Assembly (NCBI RefSeq): GCF_014280175.1
Contig: NZ_CP047931.1
Span: 90,001 to 122,000, forward strand
Direction of reading: 5' to 3'
Source of the DNA: Synechococcus sp. A15-28
GTDB lineage: Bacteria > Cyanobacteriota > Cyanobacteriia > PCC-6307 > Cyanobiaceae
DNA length: 32,000 nt
Shown one piece after another: positions 1 to 20,739 of this stretch. The notes beneath the pieces were generated by a model that saw only the letters and a program-made list of their open reading frames with translations, did no database searches and was not told where the DNA came from. The position numbers and the translations under genes were made by a program. Every line of letters starts with the position of its first letter. The stretch's first letter is position 1.

Positions 1-89
1 CTAACAGCTCCTGTATTTACCAGGAACAGCTCCGCGTCATCGGTCCCCGTAGCCACCTGGCCCGCGGAGTTGATCAGATAGTTAGCCAT
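1..89 (-). CDS. 5' end (29 codons) of a gene running off the left edge; N-terminus MANYLINSAGQVATGTDDAELFLVNTGAV; possibly a secreted or surface Ca-binding/adhesin-like protein
   Basis: Own translation of the reverse complement of 1-89. The ATG is at 87-89 and the frame stays open to the window edge. It is absent from the ORF track because it is truncated. A near-consensus promoter lies just upstream (131-159). The G-T-D-D-A-E-L-F segment resembles repeats in RTX/adhesin-type surface proteins, but 29 aa is too short to assign a family. Confidence 0.45.
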   Translation of the reverse strand, partial: MANYLINSAGQVATGTDDAELFLVNTGAV

Positions 90-130
90 GAGAAGAGGAG
101 AGGGTGATCAATTTTTGAGACACCGCAGTG

Positions 131-159
131 AATCTATGCGGGTGGCCTACACATGTCAA
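131..159 (-). promoter_or_regulatory. Candidate sigma70-type promoter TTGACA-N17-TAGATT for the gene starting at 89
   Basis: On the minus strand the -35 element is TTGACA (complement of 154-159) and the spacer is exactly 17 nt (137-153). The -10 element is TAGATT (complement of 131-136). It lies about 42 nt upstream of the ATG at 87-89. The -10 hexamer includes the TAG stop (134-136) of the upstream glycosyltransferase ORF. Confidence 0.45.
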
Positions 160-1423
160 CGGATATATGGCCAGATGCAGATGAGACACACCCTGGTTTG
201 CTGGAAGGAGGGCAAAAAGGCTCGGATATAGTACAATTATACTTGTTATAAATGTTATTTACAAGTTTTTTCCATCTTTTCAGGCATGATTTAATTGAAT
301 AGGTATCATTAGAGGGGCGTATTCGCTCACTATCTTTGTAACTTTCTTCTTTTATTAATTTGACGACAGAACTAGCTAATTCACCTGGTTTTCGGTGGTC
401 GATTCTAACCACATTTTCAAAACTTCTTGTAAATTCTGTCACTGGCTTAACATCACTTACGATCATCGGATTATTAATATATAAACTTTCAACTAAACTC
501 CAGCTCGCTACAAATGGATGCGTTAGGTAAATATGACACCATGAAGATCGCAACCAATTTCTATATGCATCTCCTTGCAAAAAACCAACCCAATTTACAT
601 TGTTGCTAATATTATGTTTTTCTAGATACATTTCAGCCCAGTTTTTCCAGGTACCTTCTACCGGTTTCATACCTCCGTAGCTGCATCTATCATTACCTGC
701 AATTTCAATAGTGACTGAAGGCACCTTTTTTACAATCTCGGGGATTTCCCTTATAAATTGCGGAAAACATCTCATCGGTTCCATGCCTCTTGTACCGTAA
801 GTGATCTTTGGCGTTTCTGATATAAATTTTTGGTCGTTTTGAAAATAATCTGTGTCAACCCCGTCAAAAATGACTTGGCATTTTTCTGCAAAAATCTTCG
901 GAAGTTGCTCCATCTGCCACAAGGTAGGAGCCACTATATTGTCTGCATGAGAAAGTTCTAGAGCTATATTTTTGTTTCTCAGCCAATATTTACGGACAGC
1001 ATCTTCGCCTATCCTTAATTCCTTATTGGTGTTATCATACCAAAAAAAATCTGACTCCTGATTAAACCACCATTCTAAATAACTTATTTGTTTGCATTTC
1101 GGCCATATTTCTTTGATGTGTAATCCGCAACCCCAAGCAGAATGAGAAATTACGATATCAGGGTAATAATTTTTTTCTTTTAATTTTACAAATGCGGTGC
1201 GATACATTTCACCCATCTTGTCTGCACGTTCAGTAAGTCCAAGACTTTGATTTTCCAAGGTCTCGTGGCTCAGGCTGCCTTTCAAACATATGCGATCGAC
1301 TCCCTTGAGTCTTCTTCCAAAGTGCGTCTGGCATAGAAATTTAATTTCATTCTTTTCTGCGAAGTATTTTGCGACATGTTTGAACTGACCTGGAAAATTT
1401 GGGTGAAGGAAAAGAATTTTCAT
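134..1423 (-). CDS. Glycosyltransferase, GT4 / group-1 family (N-terminal MKILFLHPNFPGQFKH type)
   Basis: ORF 134-1432. An ATG at 1421-1423 (MKILFLH...) is preferred over the GTG at 1430-1432. The N-terminal KILFLHPNFPGQFKH motif is typical of the GT4 N-terminal domain. The C-terminal segment FVASWSLVESLYINNPMIVSD resembles the GT1/GT4 E-x7-E region. The gene is AT-rich. Confidence 0.8.
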   Translation of the reverse strand: MKILFLHPNFPGQFKHVAKYFAEKNEIKFLCQTHFGRRLKGVDRICLKGSLSHETLENQSLGLTERADKMGEMYRTAFVKLKEKNYYPDIVISHSAWGCGLHIKEIWPKCKQISYLEWWFNQESDFFWYDNTNKELRIGEDAVRKYWLRNKNIALELSHADNIVAPTLWQMEQLPKIFAEKCQVIFDGVDTDYFQNDQKFISETPKITYGTRGMEPMRCFPQFIREIPEIVKKVPSVTIEIAGNDRCSYGGMKPVEGTWKNWAEMYLEKHNISNNVNWVGFLQGDAYRNWLRSSWCHIYLTHPFVASWSLVESLYINNPMIVSDVKPVTEFTRSFENVVRIDHRKPGELASSVVKLIKEESYKDSERIRPSNDTYSIKSCLKRWKKLVNNIYNKYNCTISEPFCPPSSKPGCVSSASGHISVDMCRPPA

Positions 1424-1468
1424 TGACAACACTTTGTACTACAATGGTGTGATTGTTGATTGGTTCTA

Positions 1469-3220
1469 ATGGGACTCAAGTTAGCCCTCAAAGCACACAG
1501 CGAGGGAAATCTTAAGCTTGCAGAGATTCATTACAAGCGTGCTCTCGAACAAGGTGACAAATCGCATATTTTATATCAAAATTTTGGCGCTTTGTTGAGG
1601 AGTCAAGACAAATTAAAGGATGCTCTTCAATGCTATCGCACTGGCCTTCATCATTTTCCTGATAATGTTGACATATTGCTAAATTACGCAAATGCCTTAC
1701 GTGCAGACTTTCCTGCTTCCGCTCTTGAAAACTACTTAAGAATCCTTGGAATAATACTTTCAACTCCTAATTTTAATGAGAAAAAGTATTTAAATGCTCT
1801 TTGTAATATTTGTCAACTTACTCATGATTTAGGTCTTTACAAACTAAATGTTCTGTATCTACGGGCGGCCCTTCCTCCCGTTAAATATAATGCGGGAATA
1901 CTACTAAACATATTACTCCTTCTTGATAAGAATAACAGTTCACAGGATACAAGCTTTTGCTTTGAACAAATATATCAAAGGATACAATCTTCTCTGCTTT
2001 CACTAACTATAACAGAAAGAGCAGAATTTCACTATTCATTGTGCCAGCATTTTCTCAACAAAAAAGCCGAAAAAGATGCATTTATTGAATTAGACAAAGC
2101 AAACACTTTATTGAACGAAGGGCTACGTGACAGCTCTCTCGATCATAAAAAACTCCAGGATATTTCTATTTGTTATCACTGGAATGCCTCCAATACACTG
2201 CTTAAAATGCAGAATTTTCAACTCGGTTGGCAGTTCTACGAATATGGTCTACGCACGCCTTGTAGTGGTCCCCAGAGATGGCAAAGGTCTTTGGCTAAGC
2301 CATTTGATTTTAACGAAGTTGTTCTTTGGCGGGGAGAATCTTTGAATTCCAGAAGAATTCTGTTACTTGAGGAACAAGGAATAGGTGATGCAATGATGTT
2401 TATTACTCTTGTGCCAGCGTTGCTCGATGAGGCTCAATGTGTTGGCCTGTTCTTGTCTGATAGATTATTGCCTATATACAGGCGTTCATTTTCCGAAGAG
2501 ATTCACAATGGAAGTCTTGTTGTATATTCACGTCAAGATTTCTACGACAATAGGCTACAGTCTAATGCTTTCGATTTTCAAGCACCATTAGGCTCAATTT
2601 GTCAATATCGCTATGATCATCCTTCCAAATTCGCACCAAAGACACCTATAATATCTACAGATACTATTACTACCGAACGATTAAGAGACAAGTATATCAC
2701 TCAAAGATCAATTAAGCCAAAAAAACTTGTCGGGTTGAGTTGGCGTGGAGGTGGTCGTGCTTCGAGAATCAAGCAAAAATCTATTAGCCCTTCGTTCTTT
2801 GCGAAGTTAATGAGGAAATATCCTGAATACCAATTTATTAGTTTGCAGTATGGTGATGCCAAATCTGTAGTTTCTACATGGAATAATGATGGCCTGGATG
2901 TTATTTATGACGAAAATATTAATGCCCTTAAGGATATGGATGGATGATTAGTTCAAGTTGCTTGTTGTGACGCTATAGTTAGTGTTGCCAATACGACTAT
3001 TCATGGCGCTGGTGGCCTTAATATACCTACAATGTGTCTTTTGAGTCTTCACTCTGACTGGAGATGGCTCGATGACCCTCTTATTAGTCGAAGCTATTGG
3101 TACTCTTCTGTCGGCATTGCTCGACAATCTGAAAATATGAACTGGGACGATGCTTTTATTACTGTTGATCATTGGTTCTGTGATAATATGGGTTATCCCA
3201 CTGGAATCATTCACCACTAA
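1469..3220 (+). pseudogene. TPR-repeat / GT9 (heptosyltransferase-like) glycosyltransferase interrupted by an in-frame TGA at 2945-2947
   Basis: ORFs 1460-2947 and 3032-3220 share one frame, with no other stop between 2948 and 3220. The N-terminus carries TPR repeats (AEIHYKRALEQGD..., ALQCYRTGLHHFPDN...). GT9 hallmarks lie on both sides of the stop. Upstream are RILLLEEQGIGDAMMF, LVGLSWRGG and FISLQYGD. Downstream are AIVSVANTTIHGAGGLNIPT and HSDWRWL. The likely start is the ATG at 1469, although the ORF opens at a TTG at 1460. Confidence 0.75.
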
Positions 3221-3234
3221 TTTCACATTATATC

Positions 3235-4323
3235 ATGAATTATGATCAACTCTTATTATTATTTCAGCAAGGTCAGTATTCAAAAATAACATCATTTATT
3301 GATGAAAGTAGTCTTTCATTTGAGTCTGACCCTAATGTTGCGCATCTTTATGCTGCTTCTCTCTTCAAGCTAGGCTCATTCGGGAAAGCCCTCGAAATCC
3401 TTGAAACTCTCGAGTCCGCTTTGGATAATAATGTTGATTACCTTTCTCTTTTTGGTGCTACTTTGCGGCGTGTAGGTAATCTTGAAAAGGCTGAGGTTCT
3501 TTTAAACAAAGCTATGAAATTAGACTCGAAAAATCCTTTTATTAGAAATAACTATGCCAATTTACTGATAGATCTCGGTCGATTCTCGGATGCACGAAAT
3601 ATTCTTGACTCACTTTTGCTTCAAAATCCAAAATATGAAGATGCTCGTATCAATCTTAATCGTCTTACATTCATAGCGACTCAATCAACTGGCAACAAAA
3701 AATCTGAAGATGTTGATTTTAATACGCAGGTTACTTCTGGAACTAAGTCCATTTCTCAACCTAAAGTTCTAGATCCTTTGCATTTAGCATTTGACGAGGA
3801 AGAAGTCTATAAATATGGTCGACTAGACCGGTCTAAAATTGTTCAATCGTCTCAACAAATTGTTGAATCTTTGGATTTACCTGATTCTTCACAAACTGCT
3901 TCGGAGTACATGAAACTTGCTCTTTTAGCAGTTCAAGAAAAAAATTTTAGTTATGCATTACAACTCTGCTCAAAAAGCTATATATTAATTGGTCCTAATT
4001 CACAAATCTTTGACTGTGTTAGTGATTGTTTTATAGGCTTATCGCGTTTTTCTGATGCAGAATCCTTTGCTTTACATGCTATCACTGTTAGTGAGCCTAC
4101 TGCAAAGCTTTATATGAATCTAGCAACCTTGGCAAGTATGAAGGGTGATTTAGTTCTTGCTGAGTTCTATTTAGAACGTGCAGCAGGTTTGGACCCTAGT
4201 CATACCCAACTCAAAAAACTTAGCGGCAACTTGAAGAGCCTTAAATCAAAGTCTTCAGCGAAAAAGTTTTCTTTTGAGCTTTGTGAATTTCCTTCTACAG
4301 TTAGCTCTAAAGATGCTGCATAG
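3235..4323 (+). CDS. TPR-repeat protein (two TPR blocks joined by a Ser/Thr/Gln-rich linker)
   Basis: 362-aa ORF. TPR-like helices include AHLYAASLFKLGSFGKALEILE, GNLEKAEVLLNKAMKLDSKNP, NNYANLLIDLGRFSDARNILDSLLLQNPKYEDA and, near the C-terminus, LYMNLATLASMKGDLVLAEFYLERAAGLDP. No catalytic motif is visible. Confidence 0.8.
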   Translation: MNYDQLLLLFQQGQYSKITSFIDESSLSFESDPNVAHLYAASLFKLGSFGKALEILETLESALDNNVDYLSLFGATLRRVGNLEKAEVLLNKAMKLDSKNPFIRNNYANLLIDLGRFSDARNILDSLLLQNPKYEDARINLNRLTFIATQSTGNKKSEDVDFNTQVTSGTKSISQPKVLDPLHLAFDEEEVYKYGRLDRSKIVQSSQQIVESLDLPDSSQTASEYMKLALLAVQEKNFSYALQLCSKSYILIGPNSQIFDCVSDCFIGLSRFSDAESFALHAITVSEPTAKLYMNLATLASMKGDLVLAEFYLERAAGLDPSHTQLKKLSGNLKSLKSKSSAKKFSFELCEFPSTVSSKDAA

Positions 4324-5089
4324 TCGATCTATTATTTATGTTGCAACAGGTGAGTCTTATGTTAAGGAAGCTATTAAGAATGCGAAATTAACTCGTGAAT
4401 ATTCAATAGATATTCCTATCTATATTGTCACCGATCTCCCTGGCAATCAAGAACTCTATGAAGTTTTTGATTATGTTCTTCCTCATCAATACCCTACCTA
4501 TTCGTACAGAGATAAGATCCTACCTCTCGTAAATCTTCCAACCGATGAGTGTCTATTCTTAGATTCTGATGCTTTCTTAATATATTCAGCACATTTTATT
4601 TTCGAGGTCTGTCAGCATTATGAAGTTGCTGCTACTCATGCTCCTGTCAGGCATCCACCAGGATGGGATGATTGCGTTACTCCGTTGTTGTTCCCTGAAT
4701 ACAATTCTGGTGTTTTGTTTCTAAGGAGATCTACTATTATTTCATCATTCATTAAATATTGGCTTGATCTTTACGACAAAGTAAGACTATCTCATAATCA
4801 GTCTTGGGACCAAGCTACGCTTCGCTCTTCTCTTTGGCAATTTATATCTAATCATAATTTAAAGCTTTTAACTTTGCCTCCAGAAGTAAATCTTCGCACT
4901 ACAAAGCCTTGGACTGCTGGTCGAGGCTTACCTGTTTTTGTTATTCACGGTAGATTAGATGTATCAGAGCTCGACTCCTTTATTCACTATCTAAATTCTG
5001 ATATAGATTGTTTTCGTACTTGGTCCCATTGGATTAATATTCACCCTTCCAGCAGTATTCAACCACGCCATGATAGGACATTTCATTAA
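4313..5089 (+). CDS. GT8-like nucleotide-diphospho-sugar glycosyltransferase
   Basis: ORF 4274-5089. The ATG at 4313 overlaps the upstream TAG (ATGCTGCATAG). The layout IIYVATGESY ... YRDKILPLVNLP ... CLFLDSDAFL (DxD) ... EYNSGVLFLRRS matches the GT-A / GT8 pattern. Confidence 0.6.
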   Translation: MLHSRSIIYVATGESYVKEAIKNAKLTREYSIDIPIYIVTDLPGNQELYEVFDYVLPHQYPTYSYRDKILPLVNLPTDECLFLDSDAFLIYSAHFIFEVCQHYEVAATHAPVRHPPGWDDCVTPLLFPEYNSGVLFLRRSTIISSFIKYWLDLYDKVRLSHNQSWDQATLRSSLWQFISNHNLKLLTLPPEVNLRTTKPWTAGRGLPVFVIHGRLDVSELDSFIHYLNSDIDCFRTWSHWINIHPSSSIQPRHDRTFH

Positions 5090-6495
5090 TTTAAACTTTC
5101 AGCAATTCCATCAATAAACCAATTTCTTCTTCTTCTTTTGGTTACCTCTTTGTCGCTCCATTCTTTTATTTCGAGCCACTCCTCTTTTCTGAATAACTCT
5201 TCTTGTTTCTTTTCGTAACAGTTTTCTTTTTCGCTACCGTCTCTTTCAAGCTCAACTGCCCATAGAATCTTGCCACTCCTTTTTCGCGCTAGTTTCTTGT
5301 TCCCTCGAATAAACAGTATCTCGTCTCTAAATTCCACTACTGCTCGATCGCTTCTTTCTGCCTTCTTTCTAAGCCTTTTGCTACTTCCATTCTTGATTAG
5401 GTTTCGCACCATTAACTTCATTATTTTTGTTAGGCCAAGCGTTTTTTGCATAGGTTCTGATTTACAAGGTCTTATTCCTCTGTAAACCCAAGGTACTCTA
5501 ATAGCACCCTCTTGAAATGAGCCTTTGTAAAGCATACCGCCATCTCCAAGTATTTCCCCATGGTCTGACGTAATAGCTATATTCCAACTATTTTTGTCAC
5601 TTCTTTGATTTATTTCTCTCATTAAATTCCCAACTTGATCATCTAATAGTTTGATATGGTCTCCATAATCGCATTTAAGTTTAAGGATATCGTTATCTTG
5701 TATCTTGCCTTTCCAATTATTGTACTTTTGTTTTAGCAAGCACTGATCATCAAGGCGGTCTATCCAGTCATAATTATTTTTTGATTCTTTGATGTCTCCA
5801 AATTTGTGTATCCCTTTCCAAGGTTTCGGTGTGTCAAAAGGCTCATGAGGTCCAACAAAACTAACCCACAAAAACCATGGTTCCGTATCTTTTTTGTTCC
5901 TAATCATGTCTTCAGCCTTTTTTGCGATCCATATGTCTGGATACAATTCATTTGGCAGTAATGTTGTTTTCACCTTCCATGCATTTTCTTCGATGTGACT
6001 TCTGTACCTTAGATCTAAATCCTGCTTTTGTTTTTCGTAGACATTCTTTGCACGCCATTCATCAGTTAGAGTGCATTCTACGTTCCTTAATGCTCTCGGA
6101 CCTGCTACCTCAATGACTTCGGAGAAACCTAGTTCATTTAGTTTATTTAACTTGTTCCTCATATCCATTGAGCTTAGGTGGCTATAGAAGTGTGCTTTCC
6201 CAATGAGAGTTGTTTTCCATCCGCTATTTCTAAGATCACGAACAAATGAAGGTGATTGATTACTCAACTCATATCTACCGTTGCTTGTTACGCCAATTCG
6301 ACTCGGTTCAAGACCTGTCAACCAACTAAATCTTGCTGGCATGCATTGTGGACTACTTGTATAACAGTAGGTTGCGTGCCAACCTTCCTCTGCAATCTTT
6401 GCAACATGGGGCATATTTGTACTCTTTGAATTGAGATCACACCAATCCGCCCTGAGCTGATCAAATGTTATCAATAGGAGATTTGTCTGTTTCAT
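5086..6495 (-). CDS. Cys-type sulfatase (alkaline-phosphatase superfamily), no signal peptide
   Basis: 469-aa ORF. The N-terminus LLLITFDQLRAD carries the metal-binding Asp. SSPQCMPARFSWLTG contains the C-x-P-x-R formylglycine motif, with Cys51 encoded at 6343-6345. LIGKAHF and ITSDHGE are typical sulfatase segments. The catalytic fold starts at residue ~6, leaving no room for a leader peptide. Confidence 0.85.
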   Translation of the reverse strand: MKQTNLLLITFDQLRADWCDLNSKSTNMPHVAKIAEEGWHATYCYTSSPQCMPARFSWLTGLEPSRIGVTSNGRYELSNQSPSFVRDLRNSGWKTTLIGKAHFYSHLSSMDMRNKLNKLNELGFSEVIEVAGPRALRNVECTLTDEWRAKNVYEKQKQDLDLRYRSHIEENAWKVKTTLLPNELYPDIWIAKKAEDMIRNKKDTEPWFLWVSFVGPHEPFDTPKPWKGIHKFGDIKESKNNYDWIDRLDDQCLLKQKYNNWKGKIQDNDILKLKCDYGDHIKLLDDQVGNLMREINQRSDKNSWNIAITSDHGEILGDGGMLYKGSFQEGAIRVPWVYRGIRPCKSEPMQKTLGLTKIMKLMVRNLIKNGSSKRLRKKAERSDRAVVEFRDEILFIRGNKKLARKRSGKILWAVELERDGSEKENCYEKKQEELFRKEEWLEIKEWSDKEVTKRRRRNWFIDGIAESLN

Positions 6496-6508
6496 TAATC
6501 TTTTTCGT

Positions 6509-6526
6509 ATGATATGATTCTATCAT
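6509..6526. promoter_or_regulatory. Inverted repeat ATGATA-N6-TATCAT in the 44-nt divergent gap between the sulfatase and GT4 genes
   Basis: 6509-6514 ATGATA and 6521-6526 TATCAT are perfect reverse complements. They occupy most of the only non-coding DNA between two divergent starts (6495 and 6540). Confidence 0.25.
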
Positions 6527-6539
6527 CAGTTTGTCTTCT

Positions 6540-7586
6540 ATGCGTTTTTGGCTTGCTTTGCATCCTGATGTCGCCAAGCCTATTGGAGGCGTAAAGCAGA
6601 TGCATCGTTTGTCAGAACATCTTTCTTCTCTTGGCTATACCTCTACAATTATCCAAGAAGATTCTTCTTTCCATCCTGGTTGGTTTGAAAGTGAGGTAAA
6701 TACCATAAGTCTCAAGCAATGGAACTCTCTGACAGATCTCTCTAAATTTCGCGATGTTATTATATTGCCTGAAACATATGTTCGGTTTTTTAGATCATAT
6801 TCTCGTGGTTTGCCACTTGTTATTTTCAATCAAAATGGTTCATACACCTTCGGTGAGTCTGATCCTGTCAAAAATCGAATTTCCCCAAAATTTGTATTTG
6901 ATTCGTATAATTTCCGTAATGTCATTCAGATTCTATGCGTTTCTGAACATGACAAGAACCTCCTGTCTGTTTTTTGTGATATGCCCGATGAGCGTATAAG
7001 TCTTATCGTTAATGGACTAGATAATTTTTCTTGCTCTAACTCAATCAAGAAGCATAATATAATTTCATTCATGCCTCGCAAGAATAGTTTTGATGCTGGT
7101 ATTGTAATGCGACTATTGTCAATTCAACCCTTTTCTAGTAACTTTAAATTTTACCCAATTGCGAATGCCTCTCATCAAGAAGTTATGAATGTTCTTCAGA
7201 AATCCCTGATTTTTCTCTCTTTTGGCCATCCAGAAGGTTTTGGACTGCCGGTTGCAGAAGCTCTTGCCTCAGGATGTTCTGTTGTTGGGTATACAGGCCT
7301 TGGTGGTCGGGAGCTTTTCGATAAAGTTTTGCGTTATAACGTGGCATTCCCTGTCGAGAATGGTGATTGGCCTGCATTTGTTAATGGTGTTTCTAGTGTT
7401 GTCAGCCGTTACAAGCATGACCACTCTAATTTTGTGGGCGATCTTGCTAAATCTTCCACCCTTATCAGGCAAAGCTACTCAGATCTTGCAATGCAAGATT
7501 CTATCAAATCTGCTGTGTTTTCTATAGAAAAGAACCTATCTCGCTTCTTGTCTTCCGATTCCGATGCAAGTTCCTTTGCTTTTTAA
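6540..7586 (+). CDS. Glycosyltransferase, GT4 / group-1 family
   Basis: ORF 6531-7586 opens with a TTG, and the first ATG is at 6540 (MRFWLALHPD). The C-terminal domain motif SFGHPEGFGLPVAEALASGCSVVGY is the E-x7-E signature region of retaining GT-B enzymes. Confidence 0.75.
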   Translation: MRFWLALHPDVAKPIGGVKQMHRLSEHLSSLGYTSTIIQEDSSFHPGWFESEVNTISLKQWNSLTDLSKFRDVIILPETYVRFFRSYSRGLPLVIFNQNGSYTFGESDPVKNRISPKFVFDSYNFRNVIQILCVSEHDKNLLSVFCDMPDERISLIVNGLDNFSCSNSIKKHNIISFMPRKNSFDAGIVMRLLSIQPFSSNFKFYPIANASHQEVMNVLQKSLIFLSFGHPEGFGLPVAEALASGCSVVGYTGLGGRELFDKVLRYNVAFPVENGDWPAFVNGVSSVVSRYKHDHSNFVGDLAKSSTLIRQSYSDLAMQDSIKSAVFSIEKNLSRFLSSDSDASSFAF

Positions 7587-7682
7587 AAGATTTCTCCTGT
7601 AAACCTCCGTTAATCTCGGCTTCCTTACGCAGGTACGGCCTCCGGATTGTAAAATATAGAGCAATTAACTGTTTAGGTTGCC

Positions 7683-10496
7683 ATGCTCAAGCTCCTGCTG
7701 GGTGATTCCAACGCCCGCAAGCTGAAGCGGTATCAGCCGATTGTTTCGGATATTGGTTTGTTAGAGGATGACGTTTCAAGGCTTCCCGATGACGACTTAA
7801 GGCGCAAAACCTTTTCATTTAAGGAGCGCCTCTTTAGTGCTGGATCTCTTGAAAACCAGCGACTTATTTTAGATGAAATATTGCCCGAGGCCTTTGCTGT
7901 AGTTCGTGAAGCCGGCAAACGTGTTCTGGGTATGCGGCATTTCGACGTTCAGCTGATTGGCGGGATGGTTCTTCATGAGGGTCAGATCGCTGAAATGAAG
8001 ACTGGCGAAGGGAAAACACTAGTTGCCACGCTGCCCAGCTATCTCAATGCACTGACTGGCCGGGGTGTGCATGTAGTTACTGTAAATGACTATCTAGCAC
8101 GCCGCGATGCTGAATGGATGGGGCAGGTGCACCGTTTTCTAGGTTTATCCGTGGGACTTATCCAGCAGGATATGCGTCCTGAGGAACGAAGGCGTAATTA
8201 CAACTGTGACATCACCTACGCCACCAACTCCGAGTTGGGTTTTGATTACCTGCGGGACAATATGGCCGCAGACATTAGTGAAGTTGTCCAGCGCGAGTTT
8301 CAGTACTGCGTGATCGATGAAGTTGATTCGATCCTGATTGATGAGGCCCGCACGCCTCTCATCATTTCCGGGCAAGTGGAGCGTCCCCAGGAGAAGTATC
8401 AGCAGGCAGCACAGGTTGCTGAGGCCTTGGAGCGGGCCGCCGAACTGGGCAAGGATGGCATTGATCCGGAGGGTGATTACGAGGTTGATGAAAAGCAGCG
8501 CAGCTGCACCCTTACCGACGATGGCTTCGCGAAAGCCGAGAAGATGCTTGGGGTGGCAGATCTGTTCAATCCTCAGGATCCCTGGGCTCACTACATCACC
8601 AATGCCCTCAAGGCCAAAGAGCTGTTTGTCAAAGACGTGAACTACATTGTTCGCGATGGCGAGGCGGTGATTGTCGATGAATTCACTGGTCGCGTGATGC
8701 CAGGACGCCGCTGGAGTGACGGCCAGCACCAAGCCATTGAGGCCAAGGAGGCCCTGCAGATCCAACCGGAAACGCAGACTCTCGCTTCCATCACGTATCA
8801 GAACTTTTTCCTGCTCTATCCCCGCTTGGCCGGCATGACCGGTACCGCCAAGACAGAAGAGGTGGAATTCGAGAAGACCTACAAACTCGAAACCACAATC
8901 GTTCCCACCAATCGGGTGCGGGCCCGTCAGGACTGGGCTGATCAGGTGTACAAAACCGAGACTGCTAAGTGGCGCGCTGTCGCCAACGAAACAGCTGAGA
9001 TTCATAAGAACGGACGGCCTGTGCTTGTTGGCACGACTTCAGTGGAGAAGAGCGAGTTGCTGAGTTCCCTGCTGGCTGAGCAGGGGATTCCGCACAACCT
9101 GCTTAACGCCAAGCCAGAGAACGTGGAGCGTGAATCGGAGATTGTGGCCCAAGCGGGTCGGGCCGGTGCGGTGACGATCGCCACCAACATGGCGGGCCGG
9201 GGCACCGACATTATTCTGGGCGGCAATAGCGACTACATGGCGCGTCTTAAGTTGCGGGAGGTGCTGCTCGGCCGTCTGGTTAAGCCGGAGGACGACCACA
9301 ATCCTCCGCTGCCCCTGCAACGCAGTACCGCCGCTGCTGGTTTCTCCGATGCTGCAGCTCCAGCACTGCCCCGCAGCGGTGAGAGCCTCTACCCCTGCCA
9401 GCTCACCGACGACACCGATCACGTCCTCGGCCAGTTGGCCCGTGATCTTGTCAAGGCCTGGGGTGATCGGGCCCTCAGCGTGATTGAGCTGGAGGAGCGT
9501 ATTGCCACCGCCGCTGAAAAAGCCCCCACCGACGATCCCCAGATCCAAGGGCTGCGCGAGGCGATCGCCCGGGTGAAGGGGGAATACGACGCGGTGGTGA
9601 AGCAGGAGGAAGCCCGGGTGCGTGAGGCCGGCGGCCTGCATGTGATTGGCACCGAACGTCATGAGTCCCGCCGGGTGGATAACCAACTGCGTGGTCGGGC
9701 TGGGCGACAGGGCGACCCCGGCTCCACCCGTTTCTTCCTTTCCTTGGGAGACAACCTGCTGCGAATCTTCGGGGGTGACCGCGTTGCCGGCCTAATGAAT
9801 GCTTTCCGCGTAGAAGAAGACATGCCGATCGAATCCGGCATGCTCACCCGCTCGCTTGAAGGGGCCCAAAAGAAGGTGGAGACCTACTACTACGACATCC
9901 GCAAGCAGGTGTTCGAGTACGACGAGGTGATGAACAACCAGCGGCGTGCGGTGTATTCCGAACGTCGGCGGGTACTGGATGGTCGCGCCCTCAAGAAGCA
10001 GGTGATCGGCTACGGCGAACGCACAATGGGCGAGATTGTGGAGGCCTATGTGAATCCCGATCTGCCGCCAGAGGAATGGGATCTCGATCAGCTCGTCGGC
10101 AAGGTGAAGGAGTTCATTTATCTGCTGGAAGATCTCACCCCCGATCAGGTGCGGGGTCTGGGCATGGAAGAGCTCAAGGCCTTTTTGCATGAGCAGCTGC
10201 GCAACGCCTACGACCTCAAGGAGGGCCAGGTCGAACAACAACGCCCAGGGCTGATGCGGGAGGCTGAGCGTTTCTTCATCCTTCAGCAGATCGACACACT
10301 CTGGCGGGAACATCTCCAGGCCATGGATGCCCTGCGCGAATCTGTTGGCCTACGTGGCTACGGACAAAAAGATCCTCTGATCGAATACAAGAACGAGGGA
10401 TACGACATGTTCCTCGAGATGATGACCAATATGCGTCGCAACGTGATTTATTCAATGTTCATGTTCCAGCCCGCCAATCCTCAGAGCGGCGGCTGA
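7683..10496 (+). CDS. secA: Preprotein translocase ATPase SecA
   Basis: 937 aa. The sequence runs [19 protein letters not shown]..., with Walker [36 protein letters not shown] and [10 protein letters not shown]. It looks like full-length SecA throughout. Confidence 0.98.
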
Positions 10497-12013
10497 CCAT
10501 CGCTCTCCCACTGACGGAAGGAAGTTTCGTAATCCGGTCTCGGTTGCACTCCTTCAGGAATCGGCTCTTTCATCTGCCTGTAGAGCCCTGCCTTGGCACA
10601 GCGGTAAAACACAGAAACTTGGTTCAGGTGCTGGCGCTTAAGTCCAGCATTTTTGAGGTGATGCAGCATGATCCGGTCGCCAATCAGGTGGCCGTAGGGC
10701 GGCATCAGCACCCACTGGTGCAGAAGATGGAAGGAGCCCCGGCCAAACAGCATCGCGTTGGTGTCAATGAACCGCTCCGGATCGGTGAGCGGGCAGGGGC
10801 CCATCACCGTGCCGTCCAGGCGGCAGAGGGTGCGGCTGGAGGAGACGAAGTCGGCCTGGTGCTGGTCCATCTCTGCTAGCAGGCTGGCGATGTGGTCTGG
10901 CCTGTACCAGTTGTCACCATCGAGGAAGGCCACGGCGTCCACCCCAAGGCCGATGGCGTGATAGCTGCCGATCAAGCGCGGTGTCGATCCGATATCACCA
11001 TGGCTGCGCGGTAGCCGCACGTGCTCGGCACGCCAATGGTTGATCCGCCTGCGGCGGTGGCCGTCGGCCACCAGCACATGCAGGCAGGGCTCGCTCTGGG
11101 CCAGCACGCTGTCGTGGCACTGGCGCAGCTGGGCCAGGGGTTCCTTGTAGTAAGGCGTGATCACGGCCACCCGGGGCAGGGGATTGCCCAGGGCCTTTAG
11201 CAGTCGCCGGTCGTCAATCAGCTCACCGCGCACCAGTTGGGCTGCGAGCGCGGCAGGTTTGGGCCGGAGGCTGTCGTAATAGGCCGGCAGGGTTCCCTGA
11301 CTGAGGTGATTCGCGTAGATCTTTCGCCAGCTGTCACCGATGCCCGCACTAACGCGTTTGTTGCGCTGTAGAGCCTCCGTTCCCTGTCGGATTTTGCGTT
11401 CGAGCTGCGCATAGCTGCGAATGGGCACATGCAGGATCTCGATGCCGGCGTTCTCTATCGCGCTGATGGGCGTTCCATCCACCCCGGCGCCGTGGTTGCC
11501 ATCGCTGATCTCAATCCCAGCATGGGCGCGATGAATCAGCTTGGGGGGCAGTGGCTTGCCGAGGCTGTTGCGTGAGACCCGTTCCCGCAGGGTCTGGCGT
11601 TGATAAAACGGCGTTTTGTCCGCGATGTTCCGCACCGGTGGCAGAAAGTTGGTGCGCTCCACCAGCACTCCCTTAATACTTTCCGGCACCTGGGTCAGGC
11701 TGGATTTCAGGCTGCCTTGCTCCGGCCACCAGAACTCATCCGCATCGCTGTTGATCACCCAGTCCGCCCCCATCGCCGCCGCCATGCGCGCCATGCGGGT
11801 CACCCACACGGCCTGGTCGTGGGTGTGCTCCGGTTCCTGCAGCAGTGTCAGCTGACCGCGGCGTTCGAACCGCTTAAGGATCTCCAGGCTGCCGTCCACC
11901 GAACCGTTGTCGGTGGCGATGATCCGGTCCACCCCCTGGGCCAGATGGAAGCGCAGCATGCTCTCAAGGATGTCGGCTTCATCCCGGCAGAGCAGTGTTA
12001 GCACCAGCATCAT
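10481..12013 (-). CDS. Two-domain family-2 (GT-A) glycosyltransferase
   Basis: 510 aa. Domain 1 is [36 protein letters not shown] ... [12 protein letters not shown]. Domain 2 is [25 protein letters not shown] ... [14 protein letters not shown]. Both carry D-x-D-type motifs. The ATG overlaps the upstream stop as ATGA (12010-13). Confidence 0.8.
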
Positions 12014-12864
12014 GGTGCGGCCCTCTTTGTTCGTTTGGGCTTGAGTTGAAGCTCCGGGCGTGGGCTCATACGTCCGTAATACCAGTGCATCTCCGGTGTG
12101 AGGTTGGTCAGTGGCAGGTCATGGGAGGGGCCAATGGCGAGACAGGCGTTGATCAGTTGTTTGAGCTCCGGGTCGCTGAACGTCGCCTTCTGCTGCTTGT
12201 ACCGAAAACAGGGGAAGTCTTCCCGGTGGAGCAGATTGGCCATGGCCTGAAGATCGGGGTGGTTGCGGAGTGCTGTCAGATCCGCTGTCTCCCGGCGTCC
12301 TGCGCCCTCTCCCACGGCCTGGAGACGCTTCCGCAGGCTCTTGGGCAGAGAGAGCGTTTCCCCCAGCGCTTCGAGATCGCTGCTGAATTGCTCGCAGCGG
12401 ATCAGCTGATCCACCATCGGGCGTTTGCCGAGGTGGGTGAACCAGTGGATTGGAAAACCATGCACCCAGCGCAGGTCGTGGGCATCCATTGCAGCCGGAA
12501 GCCGCCGCAGGTAATGCAGGAGCTGTTCATTGGTGGGTGGCTGGCTGCTGACCTGCATTTCGGTTGCTCGGCTTTTTTGGCGCAGGTGTTCCCGGCAGGC
12601 GGAGGCCAGGCGGTCGTAGGGATGACGGATGCAGGCAATGACCTGGTAACGGCGCAGCCAGCGCCATAGTTTGGTGTGACGTAGGTCCATTAAGGGACGG
12701 TGGGCCAGGTCCACTTGCCGTTTCAGCACCGGGTCGTAGCTGAAGTCGAACCAGCTCTCGGTCCGCCGATCAGCGCCGTCCTCCAGAAAGGCTCTGCGCA
12801 GGGCGGTGCCGGCACACTTGGGAATGTGCAGAACAACCAGCTTCAGATCGTGGTCAACGATCAC
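12010..12864 (-). CDS. Sulfotransferase-family protein (Sulfotransfer_2-like)
   Basis: 284 aa. It has a 5'-phosphosulfate-binding loop LVVLHIPKCAGTALRRAF and a 3'-phosphate-binding motif IACIRHPYDRLASA (R-x-P-x-x-R-x-x-S). The GTG start overlaps the cysE stop as GTGA (12861-64). Composition is high-GC, like the host. Confidence 0.7.
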   Translation of the reverse strand: MIVDHDLKLVVLHIPKCAGTALRRAFLEDGADRRTESWFDFSYDPVLKRQVDLAHRPLMDLRHTKLWRWLRRYQVIACIRHPYDRLASACREHLRQKSRATEMQVSSQPPTNEQLLHYLRRLPAAMDAHDLRWVHGFPIHWFTHLGKRPMVDQLIRCEQFSSDLEALGETLSLPKSLRKRLQAVGEGAGRRETADLTALRNHPDLQAMANLLHREDFPCFRYKQQKATFSDPELKQLINACLAIGPSHDLPLTNLTPEMHWYYGRMSPRPELQLKPKRTKRAAP

Positions 12865-13607
12865 CCGCTGTTCTCCCCCAGGAACTCGAGAATCTCCCGG
12901 TCCTTGAGGCTCTGGGCTTCACCGCGGCAGACATCCCGCAGCTGCCGCCCCTCGGCAACCTCCTTGAGGCAGCGCTGCAGATTGCTCACCGTGCTTTCCA
13001 GTTCATCGATCCGCTCCATCAGGTTGCGGATCACATTGGCTTCCGCATCCGGTAGGGCGGAGTGGGCCAGGGGGTTGATTCGTACGCCGCTTTGGTGAAT
13101 CACCCGGCCGGGGATGCCCACAACGGTGCAGTCCGCCTCCACGTCGCGCACCACCACCGAACCAGCGCCGATGCGGGTGTTGGCACCCACGTTGATCGCC
13201 CCCAGCACCTTGGCGCCGGCACCGACCACCACGTTTTCGGCCAGGGTGGGATGGCGTTTGCCGTGGTCCTTGCCGGTGCCGCCGAGGGTGACGCCCTGAT
13301 ACAGCAGGCAGTGATGCCCCACTTCAGCGGTTTCGCCGATCACCACCCCCATGCCATGGTCGATGAATACGCTGTGGCCAATCCTGGCGCCAGGGTGGAT
13401 TTCAATGCCGGTGAGCGCCCTGCCGATCTGGCTGAGGCAGCGCGCCGCGAGTTTCATCGGTAGGTGGCAAGTCCAGAGCCGGTGGCTGAGCCGATGCAGG
13501 CTGATGGCCTGAAATCCGGGGTAGCAGAACAGAATCTCCAACCAACCACGGGCCGCCGGGTCGCGCTCGCGGATGATGGCGAGATCGGCTCGGATCTGAT
13601 CGAACAT
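12861..13607 (-). CDS. cysE: Serine O-acetyltransferase
   Basis: 248 aa. The sequence includes DPAARGWLEILFCYPGFQAISLHRLSHRLW and the hexapeptide-repeat core IHPGARIGHSVFIDHGMGVVIGETAEVG...GTGKDHGKRHPTL...VGAGAKVLG. Confidence 0.93.
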   Translation of the reverse strand: MFDQIRADLAIIRERDPAARGWLEILFCYPGFQAISLHRLSHRLWTCHLPMKLAARCLSQIGRALTGIEIHPGARIGHSVFIDHGMGVVIGETAEVGHHCLLYQGVTLGGTGKDHGKRHPTLAENVVVGAGAKVLGAINVGANTRIGAGSVVVRDVEADCTVVGIPGRVIHQSGVRINPLAHSALPDAEANVIRNLMERIDELESTVSNLQRCLKEVAEGRQLRDVCRGEAQSLKDREILEFLGENSG

Positions 13608-13617
13608 CGGGGTTGAT

Positions 13618-14619: not shown

Positions 14620-14791
14620 GCCGGTGGGCCAGGTGGGAATGCGGCCACCATAAGGAGCGATTCCCGTGGTGACAATTGGGGGTGTGTCCTGTGGACCTGT
14701 GACAATTTCCGACTCAACCCGTGCTGGCTGGGTGTCCGTGGCCAACGGGCCGCTGGCCTTGCGCTGCTGGTGGTCCGCACCATCGGAAACT

Positions 14792-14842
14792 CAGCACGAT
14801 ATCAATAAGTTATCTGTTTCAAATCGTGCATATATCGTGCTG
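14792..14842. promoter_or_regulatory. Perfect 11-bp inverted repeat CAGCACGATAT-N29-ATATCGTGCTG plus a third ATCGTGC half-site; candidate operator upstream of the GntR gene
   Basis: 14792-14802 and 14832-14842 are exact reverse complements. The heptamer GCACGAT/ATCGTGC occurs at 14794-14800, 14823-14829 and 14834-14840. The repeat sits in a locally AT-rich patch in the divergent region upstream of the regulator. Confidence 0.35.
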
Positions 14843-16664: not shown

Positions 16665-16673
16665 CGCAGCGCA

Positions 16674-16689
16674 CAGGCCTCAAGGCCTG
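16674..16689 (-). other. Short GC hairpin (CAGGCC-TCAA-GGCCTG) between the infC stop and the downstream GT4 start
   Basis: 16674-16680 CAGGCCT and 16683-16689 AGGCCTG are perfect reverse complements. No U-tract follows on either strand, so this is not a canonical intrinsic terminator. Confidence 0.3.
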
Positions 16690-20738: not shown

Positions 20739-20739
20739 A

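What the first reader, a model, noticed from the sequence alone, without database searches (positions are those of the whole stretch)
225..7600. AT-rich island encoding a TPR-guided glycosylation and sulfatase module with no polysaccharide assembly or export genes
The island holds six ORFs: a GT4, a TPR-GT9, a TPR-only protein, a GT8-like enzyme, a signal-less Cys-type sulfatase and a second GT4. Their composition is far from the host (14/60 and 27/60 G+C in two hand-counted lines, against 41/60 in a core line). Classical EPS or O-antigen loci carry sugar-nucleotide synthesis genes, a priming transferase, Wzx/Wzy or ABC exporters and chain-length regulators. None of these is visible anywhere in the 32 kb. 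Instead, two proteins carry TPR protein-interaction modules. This points to cytoplasmic decoration of a protein or of another pre-formed acceptor, and the gene at 1-89 is an obvious candidate substrate. A sulfatase embedded among glycosyltransferases is an unusual combination for such a module.
Basis: partly seen in the sequence, partly recalled or inferred. Interest (0 to 1): 0.7.

Follow-up and report, generated by a model that had tools for sequence, protein, structure and literature searches.

The report
Surface-protein glycosylation and sulfation cassette
The AT-rich block is part of a gene cassette found in many marine and other picocyanobacteria: a secreted repeat protein, its likely exporter, and six cytoplasmic enzymes that probably add sulfated sugars to that protein, in versions so diverged between strains that they resemble surface "serotypes".

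Summary
Window 1-7650 is about 38% GC against about 63% for the rest. It encodes two GT4 enzymes, a TPR plus GT-B protein, a TPR-only protein, a GT8-like GT-A enzyme and a signal-less Cys-type sulfatase.

Corrections:
- The TPR-GT gene carries an in-frame TGA at 2945-2947, at a conserved Trp. It is intact in 21 of 21 metagenomic copies.
- Its GT9 label holds only through remote homology.
- The window also holds a GT2 and a sulfotransferase just beyond secA.

The source is Synechococcus sp. A15-28. The gene at 1-89 encodes a 471-aa acidic, Ser/Thr-rich RTX-like protein.

In relatives, a HlyB-type type I secretion exporter, this protein and the six enzymes form a conserved cassette (substrate 9/9, exporter 5/5 informative contigs). 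Sulfotransferases usually accompany it. Cassette proteins are 35-53% identical between strains whose SecA is 88-95% identical. dN/dS in the one close pair is 0.09-0.19, and allele relationships contradict the core-gene relationships.

Low GC is not intrinsic to the cassette: complete copies sit at host-like 51-67% GC elsewhere.

The best reading is cytoplasmic O-glycosylation and sulfation of the secreted protein. This is inferred, not shown.

The parts
1..89 (-). 5' end (first 29 codons) of the candidate acceptor gene: a 471-aa RTX-like beta-strand repeat protein (P0250). The rest lies off the window.
   Evidence: The translation MANYLINSAGQVATGTDDAELFLVNTGAV is identical to the start of P0250 from Synechococcus sp. 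A15-28. The protein is 15% Gly and 22% Ser+Thr, has 48 acidic against 9 basic residues, no Cys or Trp, and 8 GGxGxD-like motifs. Distant relatives carry PF00353.
134..1423 (-). O1: GT4-family glycosyltransferase (GT-B), co-directional with the acceptor gene and directly upstream of it.
   Evidence: PF12000 8e-33 and PF00534 2.5e-9. Present in 18 of 20 informative metagenomic loci.
1469..3220 (+). O2: N-terminal TPR superhelix plus a C-terminal GT-B domain remotely related to GT9. It is interrupted by an in-frame TGA at 2945-2947, so the annotated product is 492 aa instead of about 586.
   Evidence: (homologs are 575-600 aa). Trp (TGG) sits at this codon in L001 and L084. dN/dS is 0.09 before the stop and 0.16 after it. 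O2 is intact in 21 of 21 metagenomic loci.
3235..4323 (+). O3: TPR-only protein, two TPR blocks joined by an acidic, Ser-rich linker. Candidate adaptor or chaperone.
   Evidence: TPR_19 1.5e-17, TPR_14 2e-14. Weak NCBIfam resemblance to TPR secretion chaperones SctY and LcrH. Present in 32 of 36 informative loci.
4313..5089 (+). O4: GT-A fold, GT8-like glycosyltransferase with an invariant D-x-D.
   Evidence: No Pfam hit. Model pLDDT 94.8. Foldseek hits to glycogenin, LARGE1, GlyE and XXYLT1, E 1e-11 to 5e-8. Invariant D84 and D86.
5086..6495 (-). O5: cytoplasmic type I (formylglycine, Cys-type) sulfatase.
   Evidence: PF00884 9.5e-33. NCBIfam arylsulfatase 1.7e-49 and choline-sulfatase 7.5e-40, both below their cut-offs. 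PDB sulfatase 9koq 8e-28 and choline sulfatases. CMPAR at residue 51 is conserved in 4 strains. No signal peptide or TM segment. Present in 28 of 30 informative loci.
6531..7586 (+). O6: second, divergent GT4-like glycosyltransferase. The true start is probably the ATG at 6540.
   Evidence: PF00534 1.9e-6, 27.9 bits against a cut-off of 26.4. Present in 21 of 26 informative loci. Replaced by other genes in L086 and absent in L085.
7683..10496 (+). secA: a housekeeping core gene that marks the right edge of the hypervariable block. Not part of the module.
   Evidence: 88-95% aa identity among strains. DNA similarity to other strains starts at window 7677-7683. In metagenomic loci the cassette is next to secA in only 2 of 11 informative cases.
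10481..12013 (-). Two-domain GT2 glycosyltransferase with host-like GC. A probable accessory component of the pathway.
   Evidence: PF00535 3.7e-17 and PF13704 7e-15. Present with the cassette in L001, L082, L083, L084, L085, and in variant forms in L081 and L086. Absent from WH7803, MIT S9507 and CUG2213, which lack the cassette.
12010..12864 (-). Sulfotransfer_2-family sulfotransferase with host-like GC. A probable accessory component: it would sulfate the glycan.
   Evidence: PF03567 7e-9. Same co-occurrence pattern as the GT2. Other sulfotransferases sit inside or beside the cassette in L081, L086 and L130.

Best explanation
The island is the enzyme half of a conserved picocyanobacterial cassette. 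The full cassette is a HlyB-type type I secretion ABC exporter, a ~470-aa acidic, Ser/Thr-rich RTX-like repeat protein, and six soluble cytoplasmic proteins.

Proposed mechanism:
- The unfolded repeat protein is captured in the cytoplasm by the TPR domain of O2, possibly helped by the TPR-only O3.
- It is O-glycosylated by O2 (GT-B, remotely GT9-like) and the glycan is extended by O1 and O6 (GT4) and O4 (GT8-like).
- The glycan is sulfated by the neighbouring PAPS-type sulfotransferases and trimmed by the formylglycine sulfatase O5.
- The product is exported by the ABC system to the cell surface.

Alleles of the whole cassette are ancient, are under purifying selection, and are exchanged between lineages. 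This fits frequency-dependent selection by phages or grazers on a surface antigen.

Shown: the domain identities, the soluble nature of the enzymes, the gene linkage, the divergence pattern, and the stop codon in A15-28's O2.

Inferred: the acceptor, the order of reactions, sulfation of the glycan, the role of the sulfatase, and the selective agent.

In A15-28 the pathway may be impaired, because O2 lacks its last ~90 residues, including the invariant ANTTIHGxGG segment.
For: - Linkage. Seven genomic loci share the order substrate, O1, O2, O3, O4, O5, (O6). The ABC exporter is present in all four that reach far enough. In 52 metagenomic loci with canonical O4, counting only informative contigs: substrate 9/9, ABC 5/5, O1 18/20, O2 19/23, O3 32/36, O5 28/30, O6 21/26.
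- Linkage survives changes of context. It holds with or without secA adjacency, across cassette GC of 0.38 to 0.71, and through gene-order rearrangements.
- Exporter. TIGR01846 HlyB type I secretion 4e-194, with cNMP-binding and weak C39-like domains.
- Substrate. RTX-like, with a conserved N-terminus and a conserved C-terminal motif.
- O2 architecture equals that of protein O-glycosyltransferases. Foldseek's top hits are SPY and OGT. FlmG is 596 aa, and its TPR domain binds its substrate (PMC7591256).
- All six proteins lack TM segments and signal peptides.
- No priming transferase, flippase or polymerase is present in the window or in the syntenic loci.
- Sulfotransferases recur with the cassette.
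- Precedent: cyanobacterial RTX surface proteins SwmA and oscillin are reported to be glycosylated (PMC3034196).
- Evolution. Cassette genes are 35-53% identical where SecA is 88-95%. dN/dS is 0.09-0.19. The window-L084 pair has the closest cassette (80-90%) and one of the lowest SecA identities (89%).
Against: - There is no biochemical evidence. Nothing here shows that the repeat protein is glycosylated or sulfated.
- GT9-like, GT8 and GT4 enzymes are also the classical lipopolysaccharide-core set.
- TPR domains also serve as scaffolds in capsule polymerases (8qoy ranks second).
- No membrane-fusion or TolC-type gene lies beside the exporter.
- A bulky sulfated glycan would have to pass through a type I secretion channel.
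- A cytoplasmic sulfatase working alongside sulfotransferases looks futile, and no formylglycine-generating enzyme was found in the window.
- A15-28's own left flank could not be retrieved, so its exporter is inferred from relatives.
- O2 is truncated in this strain.
Confidence: 0.5

Rival explanations
1. The six enzymes decorate a lipid-linked acceptor, such as the simple lipopolysaccharide core of marine Synechococcus or another glycolipid, on the cytoplasmic face of the membrane. The product then leaves by general machinery encoded elsewhere. The neighbouring repeat protein and its exporter are linked only because both are surface determinants under the same selection.
For: The family mix of GT9-like, GT8-like and two GT4 enzymes is the mix found in waa-type core loci (knowledge of Waa enzymes). 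Such enzymes are soluble or peripheral and need no Wzx/Wzy, which matches the absence of these genes. Low-GC, hypervariable glycan loci are typical of O-antigen and core regions.
Against: - The substrate gene and the ABC exporter stay with the enzymes in every informative contig and through rearrangements.
- Waa enzymes are not known to have TPR domains, whereas two TPR proteins are conserved here.
- No lipid A, Kdo or kinase genes are adjacent.
- O5 is not an EptA-type membrane transferase. It has no TM helices and has Cys in C-x-P-x-R.
Confidence: 0.2
2. The cassette makes a small sulfated oligo- or polysaccharide that the adjacent ABC protein exports directly, as ChvA/NdvA or HepA-type exporters do. 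The repeat protein is a co-secreted binding or anchoring partner rather than the acceptor.
For: The exporter also scores against glucan and heterocyst-polysaccharide ABC models (chvA 6e-79, HepA family 2e-86). Sulfotransferases and sulfatases recur with the cassette. Sulfated exopolysaccharides are known in cyanobacteria (own knowledge).
Against: The best exporter match by far is HlyB type I secretion (647 bits against 266-291), and a C39-like domain is present. No priming transferase, polymerase or synthase is in the cassette. The TPR plus GT-B architecture points to a protein acceptor.
Confidence: 0.1
3. In A15-28 specifically, the module is a recently crippled remnant. The premature stop in O2 abolishes the first transfer step, so the strain displays an unmodified or differently modified surface. 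This could be a phage- or grazer-escape mutation, or a laboratory mutation.
For: - TGA replaces a conserved Trp codon, and the frame remains open to 3220.
- The deposited annotation is 492 aa.
- 21 of 21 metagenomic copies are intact.
- dN/dS after the stop is 0.16, so the lesion is recent.
- The nearest allele, L084, has a different lesion about 30 nt upstream.
Against: - It could be a sequencing error or a tolerated split.
- The L084 lesion is in a contig of 4.5x coverage.
- The other five genes look intact.
- This reading concerns the state of the module, not its nature, and is compatible with the best explanation.
Confidence: 0.45

Closest known systems
FlmG flagellin O-glycosyltransferase of Caulobacter crescentus (PMC7591256)
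   Same: A cytoplasmic enzyme of almost the same size (596 against ~586 aa) and layout: an N-terminal TPR domain that binds the secreted substrate, and a C-terminal GT-B domain. It modifies Ser/Thr of a protein that is exported unfolded.
   Different: Sequence homology could not be tested because no FlmG sequence was available. FlmG transfers pseudaminic acid made by dedicated genes, and its substrate leaves through the flagellar apparatus. Here no nonulosonic-acid genes are seen, the substrate is an RTX-like protein with a type I exporter, and five more enzymes are attached.
O-GlcNAc transferase and SPINDLY (GT41)
   Same: A TPR superhelix followed by a GT-B catalytic domain. These are the best Foldseek matches to the O2 model (E 2e-9 to 1e-6).
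   Different: The catalytic domain shows no sequence match to GT41. TM-scores are low (about 0.25) because the domain arrangement differs. The sequence link goes to GT9 instead.
Autotransporter heptosyltransferases AAH/TibC (GT9-related; Lu et al. 2014, cited in PMC7591256; otherwise own knowledge)
   Same: GT9-type enzymes that O-glycosylate a beta-helical repeat surface protein in the cytoplasm. They are encoded next to their substrate.
   Different: They have no TPR domain, use ADP-heptose, and their substrate is exported by Sec and the autotransporter route. No sequence-level match was found in the PDB search.
SwmA surface-layer protein of Synechococcus WH8102 and its island
   Same: A marine Synechococcus RTX-type surface protein reported as glycosylated (PMC3034196), lying in a clade III genomic island together with a glycosyltransferase (PMC7522525).
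   Different: SwmA is a 130-kDa polypeptide, against 471 aa here. A15-28 is one of the two clade III strains lacking swmA and swmB. Whether the two loci are positional equivalents was not testable.
Serine-rich-repeat adhesin glycosylation loci with the accessory Sec system (GtfA/B, GlyE)
   Same: A secreted repeat protein plus several cytoplasmic GT4 and GT8 enzymes in one locus. GlyE is among the structural matches of O4. A secA gene is adjacent in A15-28.
   Different: The secA here is the housekeeping gene. It is 88-95% conserved and is present in strains without the cassette. The cassette is next to secA in only 2 of 11 informative metagenomic loci. There is no SecY2 or Asp, and export is by a type I ABC system.
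Replacement-type flexible genomic islands and low-GC glycosyltransferase islands of marine picocyanobacteria (PMC7522525; otherwise own knowledge)
   Same: The same chromosomal site, conserved flanks, deviant GC and surface-glycan genes, with diversity attributed to phage and grazer pressure. Dore et al. list a predicted island GI01 in A15-28.
   Different: Here gene content and order are conserved while the sequences are 35-53% identical. Each allele is under purifying selection. The same cassette exists at host-like GC in other lineages.

Membership tests
GT4 glycosyltransferases (O1, O6) | Pfam Glycos_transf_1 or GT4 N-terminal domain above the gathering score | tested here: met
   O1: PF12000 114 bits (cut-off 25) and PF00534 37.4 bits (cut-off 26.4). 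O6: PF00534 27.9 bits, which is marginal.
GT9 (heptosyltransferase family), for O2 | Direct match to Pfam PF01075, or to solved GT9 sequences | tested here: not met
   PF01075 was not among the families reported for the window protein or the 60 scanned homologs (top 25 families shown), and the isolated catalytic domain had no hit. There were no PDB sequence hits.
GT9 (heptosyltransferase family), for O2 | Homology through intermediate sequences, and a GT-B fold close to a GT9 structure | tested here: met
   hhalign of the catalytic-domain profile against P0478 gives 99.9% probability, E 1e-35. That region of P0478 carries PF01075 at 50.6 bits (cut-off 22), and P0445 carries it at 36.2 bits. 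WaaF (1psw) is the best Foldseek hit lacking TPR repeats, TM 0.54.
GT9 (heptosyltransferase family), for O2 | Use of ADP-heptose as donor | not testable with these tools
   No heptose-synthesis genes are in the window. The donor is unknown.
GT41 (OGT/SPY), for O2 | TPR array followed by a GT-B catalytic domain | tested here: met
   Model: helices 2-266 form the TPR array and residues 300-588 form the GT-B domain. SPY and OGT top the Foldseek list.
GT41 (OGT/SPY), for O2 | Sequence similarity of the catalytic domain to GT41 | tested here: not met
   Only the TPR part aligns to OGT (query residues up to 134). The catalytic domain alone finds nothing.
FlmG-class cytoplasmic protein O-glycosyltransferases | Two-domain layout, with a TPR N-terminal domain that binds the secreted substrate and a GT-B C-terminal domain | tested here: inconclusive
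   Layout and length match. Substrate binding and sequence homology could not be tested.
GT8, for O4 | Match to the Pfam GT8 family | tested here: not met
   No Pfam or NCBIfam hit, even at E 10. Rare homologs carry PF11051 or PF03407.
GT8, for O4 | GT-A fold closest to GT8 structures, with a D-x-D metal site | tested here: met
   Glycogenin-1 and -2, LARGE1, GlyE and XXYLT1 at E 1e-11 to 5e-8, TM about 0.5-0.59. D84 and D86 are invariant in 57 sequences.
Type I (formylglycine) sulfatases, for O5 | Sulfatase domain with C/S-x-P-x-R and metal-binding residues | tested here: met
   PF00884 114 bits. CMPAR or CVPAR is conserved in 4 strains. The N-terminal FDQ-R-D and SDHGE segments align to solved sulfatases.
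Type I (formylglycine) sulfatases, for O5 | A maturation enzyme (FGE or anSME) available in the cell | not tested
   None is in the window.
RTX / type I secretion substrates, for the gene at 1-89 | Gly/Asp-rich nonapeptide repeats, acidic, no Cys, C-terminal conserved region | tested here: met
   8 GGxGxD-like motifs, 48 acidic against 9 basic residues, no Cys or Trp. A conserved C-terminal AYLFVQGG..DLVV.F motif. PF00353 is found only in distant relatives, and the direct hit has E 0.33.
RTX / type I secretion substrates, for the gene at 1-89 | Adjacent HlyB-type ABC exporter, membrane-fusion protein and TolC | tested here: inconclusive
   The ABC exporter is present in 4/4 genomic and 5/5 metagenomic loci that reach far enough, at TIGR01846 4e-194. 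No fusion protein or TolC is nearby. A15-28's own flank was not retrievable.
Classical polysaccharide loci (Wzx/Wzy- or ABC-dependent EPS and O-antigen) | Priming transferase, flippase and polymerase or Wzm/Wzt, chain-length regulator, sugar-nucleotide genes | tested here: not met
   None is in the window, nor among the called genes of L081-L086.
waa-type LPS core clusters | GT9, GT8 and GT4 enzymes together with Kdo transferase, core kinases or lipid A genes | tested here: inconclusive
   The GT family mix matches. No Kdo, lipid A or kinase genes are adjacent, and two TPR proteins, a substrate gene and a type I exporter are present instead.
Known anti-phage defence systems (PADLOC) | Match to a defence-system protein model | tested here: not met
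   No hits for the six proteins or the substrate apart from a below-noise TPR match. The ABC exporter gives generic ATPase hits only.

The most novel reading that the evidence does not exclude
This is a previously undescribed class of bacterial protein-glycosylation system. It would be coupled to type I secretion and guided by TPR domains. It would build a sulfated O-glycan on an RTX-like surface protein, with a cytoplasmic formylglycine sulfatase acting as an editing enzyme. It would be maintained across picocyanobacteria as ancient, horizontally exchanged "serotype" cassettes in which substrate, exporter and enzymes co-diverge.
Probability: 0.3. Interest if true: 0.8.

Novelty: new variant of a known kind. 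Interest (0 to 1): 0.6.

Why it matters
Marine Synechococcus is among the most abundant phototrophs, and its losses to phages and grazers depend on cell-surface chemistry. This cassette is a concrete, widespread and testable candidate for a major variable surface antigen: one protein, its exporter and its decorating enzymes in one place.

The pattern of diversity is a clear example of long-lived, exchangeable surface types. Gene content is conserved, proteins are 35-53% identical, each allele is under purifying selection, and allele relationships are decoupled from the core genome.

If the chemistry is confirmed, it would add two things. It would be a glycoprotein secreted by the type I route with a sulfated glycan. 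It would also give a biosynthetic role to a cytoplasmic sulfatase, which is unusual.

The O2-type TPR plus GT9-like domain also belongs to a very large uncharacterised family (5,464 cluster representatives at E <= 1e-30).

Tried and rejected
- Exact-sequence look-ups of O1, O5, O4 (P0001) and the substrate (P0250) found no contig. A15-28's own left flank was therefore never seen.
- Pfam, NCBIfam and PDB sequence searches of O2, of 60 homologs and of the isolated catalytic domain found only TPR matches. Direct GT9 or GT41 membership was rejected.
- I first read the cassette as always low-GC and always next to secA. The metagenome scan overturned both.
- I considered an accessory-Sec-type system because of the adjacent secA. 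I rejected it because this secA is the conserved housekeeping copy and the adjacency is not general.
- I considered an EptA-type transferase for O5. I rejected it because O5 has no TM helices and has Cys in C-x-P-x-R.
- I considered a known defence system. PADLOC gave nothing.
- I considered an old pseudogene for O2. I rejected it because dN/dS is 0.09-0.16 on both sides of the stop.
- The WH8102 swimming-mutant papers and SYNW gene numbers could not be read or found. The relation to the swmA locus stays open.
- The cluster identifiers in the Dore et al. supplement could not be mapped to genes, because the descriptions are not held.
- dS between deep alleles is saturated, so no selection test was possible beyond the one close pair.

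Full report
**1. The observation**

The compositional break is real. All 500-nt windows from 1 to 7500 are 33-41% GC, 7501-8000 is 46%, and 8001-24500 is 54-68%. The six ORFs are present.

Pfam and NCBIfam support:
- GT4 for O1 (134-1423, minus strand; PF12000 8e-33 and PF00534 2.5e-9).
- GT4, marginally, for O6 (6531-7586; PF00534 1.9e-6).
- TPR for O3 (3235-4323).
- Sulfatase for O5 (5086-6495, minus strand; PF00884 9.5e-33).

These searches give only TPR for O2 and nothing for O4.

O5 has the C-x-P-x-R formylglycine motif (CMPAR at residue 51, conserved in four strains). It begins directly with the metal-binding strand and has no hydrophobic segment. Its nearest solved relatives are a sulfatase (9koq, 8e-28) and cytoplasmic choline sulfatases. 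None of the six proteins has a signal peptide or a TM-like segment.

**2. The two unassigned domains**

O4 was modelled with 57 homologs (pLDDT 94.8). Foldseek places it with GT8 enzymes: glycogenin, LARGE1, GlyE and XXYLT1, at E 1e-11 to 5e-8. A D-x-D is invariant. GT8-like is therefore supported by fold, not by sequence.

O2 homologs are 575-600 aa. A model of a 588-aa homolog (pLDDT 92.2) shows a TPR superhelix (residues 2-266) and a GT-B domain (300-588). Foldseek's best matches are SPINDLY and OGT, which share the two-domain layout. The best match lacking TPR repeats is the GT9 enzyme WaaF (1psw, TM 0.54).

The isolated catalytic domain finds nothing in Pfam or among PDB sequences. A profile search of 1.84 billion representatives found 5,464 proteins at E <= 1e-30. 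They include 1,000-3,100-aa proteins with several copies of the domain, from Pirellulales and Rhodospirillaceae assemblies. Two of the remote relatives carry Pfam Glyco_transf_9 above threshold in the same region, and hhalign links the O2 domain to one of them at 99.9% probability. So O2 is a TPR protein with a divergent, GT9-related GT-B domain.

**3. A lesion in O2**

In the window the O2 frame is cut by TGA at 2945-2947 and then continues in frame to 3220. The relatives L001 and L084 have Trp at that codon. The deposited A15-28 protein is 492 aa.

The lost part includes the invariant ANTTIHGxGG segment. In 21 of 21 metagenomic loci with both neighbours present, O2 is a single uninterrupted match of at least 540 aa. 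dN/dS against the nearest allele is 0.09 before the stop and 0.16 after it. The lesion is therefore recent, or it is an error.

**4. Source and neighbours**

O2, O4 and the substrate have 100%-identical entries from Synechococcus sp. A15-28. According to Dore et al. (PMC7522525), this is a clade IIIb strain with a 2,341,586-bp genome at 60.1% GC. It is one of the two clade III strains lacking swmA and swmB.

The 29 codons at 1-89 are the start of P0250. P0250 is a 471-aa protein with 15% Gly, 22% Ser+Thr, 48 acidic against 9 basic residues, no Cys or Trp, and eight GGxGxD-like motifs. Its family has a conserved N-terminus and a conserved C-terminal motif. More distant members carry the RTX repeat domain PF00353.

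The rest of the window is housekeeping, apart from these genes:
- a two-domain GT2 (10481-12013);
- a Sulfotransfer_2 gene (12010-12864);
- a GT4 (15069-16664);
- a second low-GC patch holding a weak Sulfotransfer_3-like ORF (26127-26960).

**5. The cassette**

Seven genomic or long-contig loci share the order: substrate (minus strand), O1 (minus), O2, O3, O4 (plus), O5 (minus), O6 (plus). The loci are the window, L001, L081 (CC9616), L082 (YX-04-1), L084, L085 and L086 (MU1611).

In the four loci that reach far enough, a ~985-aa ABC protein lies beyond the substrate gene. It has cNMP-binding and weak C39-like domains, and it scores 4e-194 against the HlyB type I secretion model.

WH7803 and CUG2213 lack the cassette, as does MIT S9507, which keeps only a weak O1-like GT4 and a diverged ABC gene. 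All three also lack the GT2 and the sulfotransferase beyond secA.

A metagenome scan with the O4 profile gave 80 more loci. Among the 52 with canonical O4, and counting only contigs long enough to be informative, the neighbours are present as follows:

| Component | Present / informative |
|---|---|
| Substrate | 9/9 |
| ABC exporter | 5/5 |
| O1 | 18/20 |
| O2 | 19/23 |
| O3 | 32/36 |
| O5 | 28/30 |
| O6 | 21/26 |

Rearranged distant variants still keep the substrate with O2 and, in most, O3 (L146, L152, L153, L157; L154 keeps O1 and O2).

Two of my early impressions were wrong:
- secA adjacency is seen in only 2 of 11 informative loci.
- Cassette GC ranges from 0.38 to 0.71. Complete cassettes sit in flanks of matching GC in L113 (0.51), L130 and L132 (0.60) and L114 (0.66).

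Low GC and the secA site are therefore properties of the marine lineage, not of the module.

**6. The sulfation theme**

Sulfotransferases accompany the cassette in most contexts examined:
- Sulfotransfer_2 beyond secA in the window, L001, L081, L082, L083 and L085.
- An extra Sulfotransfer_1 in CC9616.
- Two Sulfotransfer_2 genes in MU1611.
- Sulfotransfer_1 and a 781-aa Sulfotransfer_3 protein after O6 in L130.

A second, small sulfatase-like gene recurs in L001, L085, L113, L114 and L130. A BNR-repeat protein recurs in L113, L114 and L130.

**7. Evolution**

In 21 pairwise comparisons of seven loci, SecA is 88-95% identical, the ABC protein 56-64%, and the substrate and the six enzymes 35-53%. 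The one exception is the window-L084 pair, at 80-90%.

That pair has one of the lowest SecA identities (89%). Its dS is 1.78 in secA against 0.43-0.81 in the cassette, and its dN/dS is 0.09-0.19 in all six genes. DNA similarity to the other strains starts at the secA start codon.

Whole-cassette alleles are therefore old, functional, and moved between genomic backgrounds. In CC9616 the non-coding gap next to the substrate gene holds a degenerate copy of a substrate 3' end, possibly a scar of a replacement.

**8. Most likely mechanism (inferred)**

The unfolded repeat protein is bound by the TPR domain of O2, perhaps with O3 as adaptor. It is O-glycosylated by O2 and extended by O1, O4 and O6. 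The glycan is sulfated by the neighbouring sulfotransferases and trimmed by O5. The product is exported by the type I system.

The grounds are:
- the invariant linkage of substrate, exporter and enzymes;
- the OGT/SPY/FlmG-like layout of O2. In FlmG the TPR domain binds the secreted substrate (PMC7591256);
- the soluble nature of all the enzymes;
- the absence of any lipid-carrier machinery;
- the reports that cyanobacterial RTX surface proteins SwmA and oscillin are glycosylated (PMC3034196).

I put this at about 0.5.

Rivals:
- A lipopolysaccharide-core or glycolipid decoration module (0.2). The GT9-like, GT8 and GT4 mix is the classical core set.
- A directly exported sulfated glycan (0.1).

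Independently of these, the pathway may be disabled in A15-28 by the O2 stop (0.45).

The role of a cytoplasmic formylglycine sulfatase beside sulfotransferases is the weakest part. No maturase was seen, and an editing role is a guess.

**9. Comparison and novelty**

Low-GC, glycosyltransferase-rich islands in marine picocyanobacteria are well known. Dore et al. list a predicted island GI01 in A15-28 that may include this locus, but I found no functional description.

The components resemble known systems: FlmG, OGT/SPY, AAH/TibC, serine-rich-repeat adhesin loci, and SwmA. Membership in GT9, GT41 and GT8 fails at the direct sequence level.

Three things appear to be new:
- the fixed combination of type I exporter, RTX-like protein, TPR-GT, TPR protein, GT8-like enzyme, two GT4s and a cytoplasmic sulfatase, with sulfotransferases;
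- its breadth across picocyanobacteria;
- its deep, exchangeable allelic diversity with conserved gene content.

I rate it a new variant of a known kind, with interest 0.6.

Noticed in passing
window 2945-2947: An in-frame TGA replaces a conserved Trp codon in the TPR-GT gene. The frame stays open to 3220. The deposited protein is 492 aa, against about 586 in relatives.
   Followed up: yes
L084 about 3590-3634: The nearest allele (a metagenome contig at 4.5x coverage) keeps TGG at that codon but has a 1-nt deletion about 30 nt upstream, which splits O2 into 493 and 93 aa. This is either an independent lesion or an assembly error.
   Followed up: partly
window 26001-27000 (ORF 26127-26960, minus strand): A second low-GC patch (35-36% GC) holds a 277-aa ORF with a weak Sulfotransfer_3 match (E 1.2e-4, below the cut-off). 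This would be another possibly imported sulfotransferase, 19 kb from the island.
   Followed up: no
window 15069-16664 (minus strand): A 531-aa GT4 glycosyltransferase with host-like GC lies between the GntR-like gene and infC. It has a weak match to the GT4 family found in conflict systems (5e-5). A similar 567-aa protein sits inside the cassette in L113.
   Followed up: no
L081 3084-4407: The AT-rich gap between the ABC exporter and the substrate gene contains a degenerate copy of the substrate gene's 3' end (63-aa ORF ending ...KSGSAAYLFV). This is a possible scar of a past cassette replacement. The gaps in four strains share no DNA similarity.
   Followed up: partly
L081 120-3083, L082 711-3668, L085 311-3292, L086 75-3041: The type I secretion ABC exporter carries an N-terminal cyclic-nucleotide-binding domain, which suggests that secretion is regulated by cAMP or cGMP.
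   Followed up: no
P0363, P0381, P0395 and others: The O2-type catalytic domain occurs in giant proteins of 1,000-3,100 aa, with many TPR blocks and several profile matches per protein. They come from Pirellulales and Rhodospirillaceae assemblies and are annotated only as TPR proteins.
   Followed up: partly
L130 13269-14477, L114 8428-9663, L113 15580-16809: In cassettes at 51-66% GC, a BNR-repeat (sialidase-like beta-propeller) protein and a small sulfatase-like protein directly follow O6. They are absent from the A15-28 version.
   Followed up: no
L002 6161-9115 (MIT S9507): This strain lacks the six enzymes but has a 43%-identical ABC exporter next to secA, with different neighbours including a Sulfotransfer_1-like ORF. 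It is a different occupant of the same site.
   Followed up: partly
window 1424-1468 and 6496-6530: The divergently transcribed pairs O1/O2 and O5/O6 are separated by only about 35-45 nt, and O4 and O5 overlap tail to tail. Promoters must therefore lie inside coding sequence. The arrangement is conserved across alleles.
   Followed up: no
window 24553-25233: A 226-aa ORF with no Pfam or NCBIfam match sits in a local GC dip (47% at 24501-25000), next to a sigma-70 gene.
   Followed up: no
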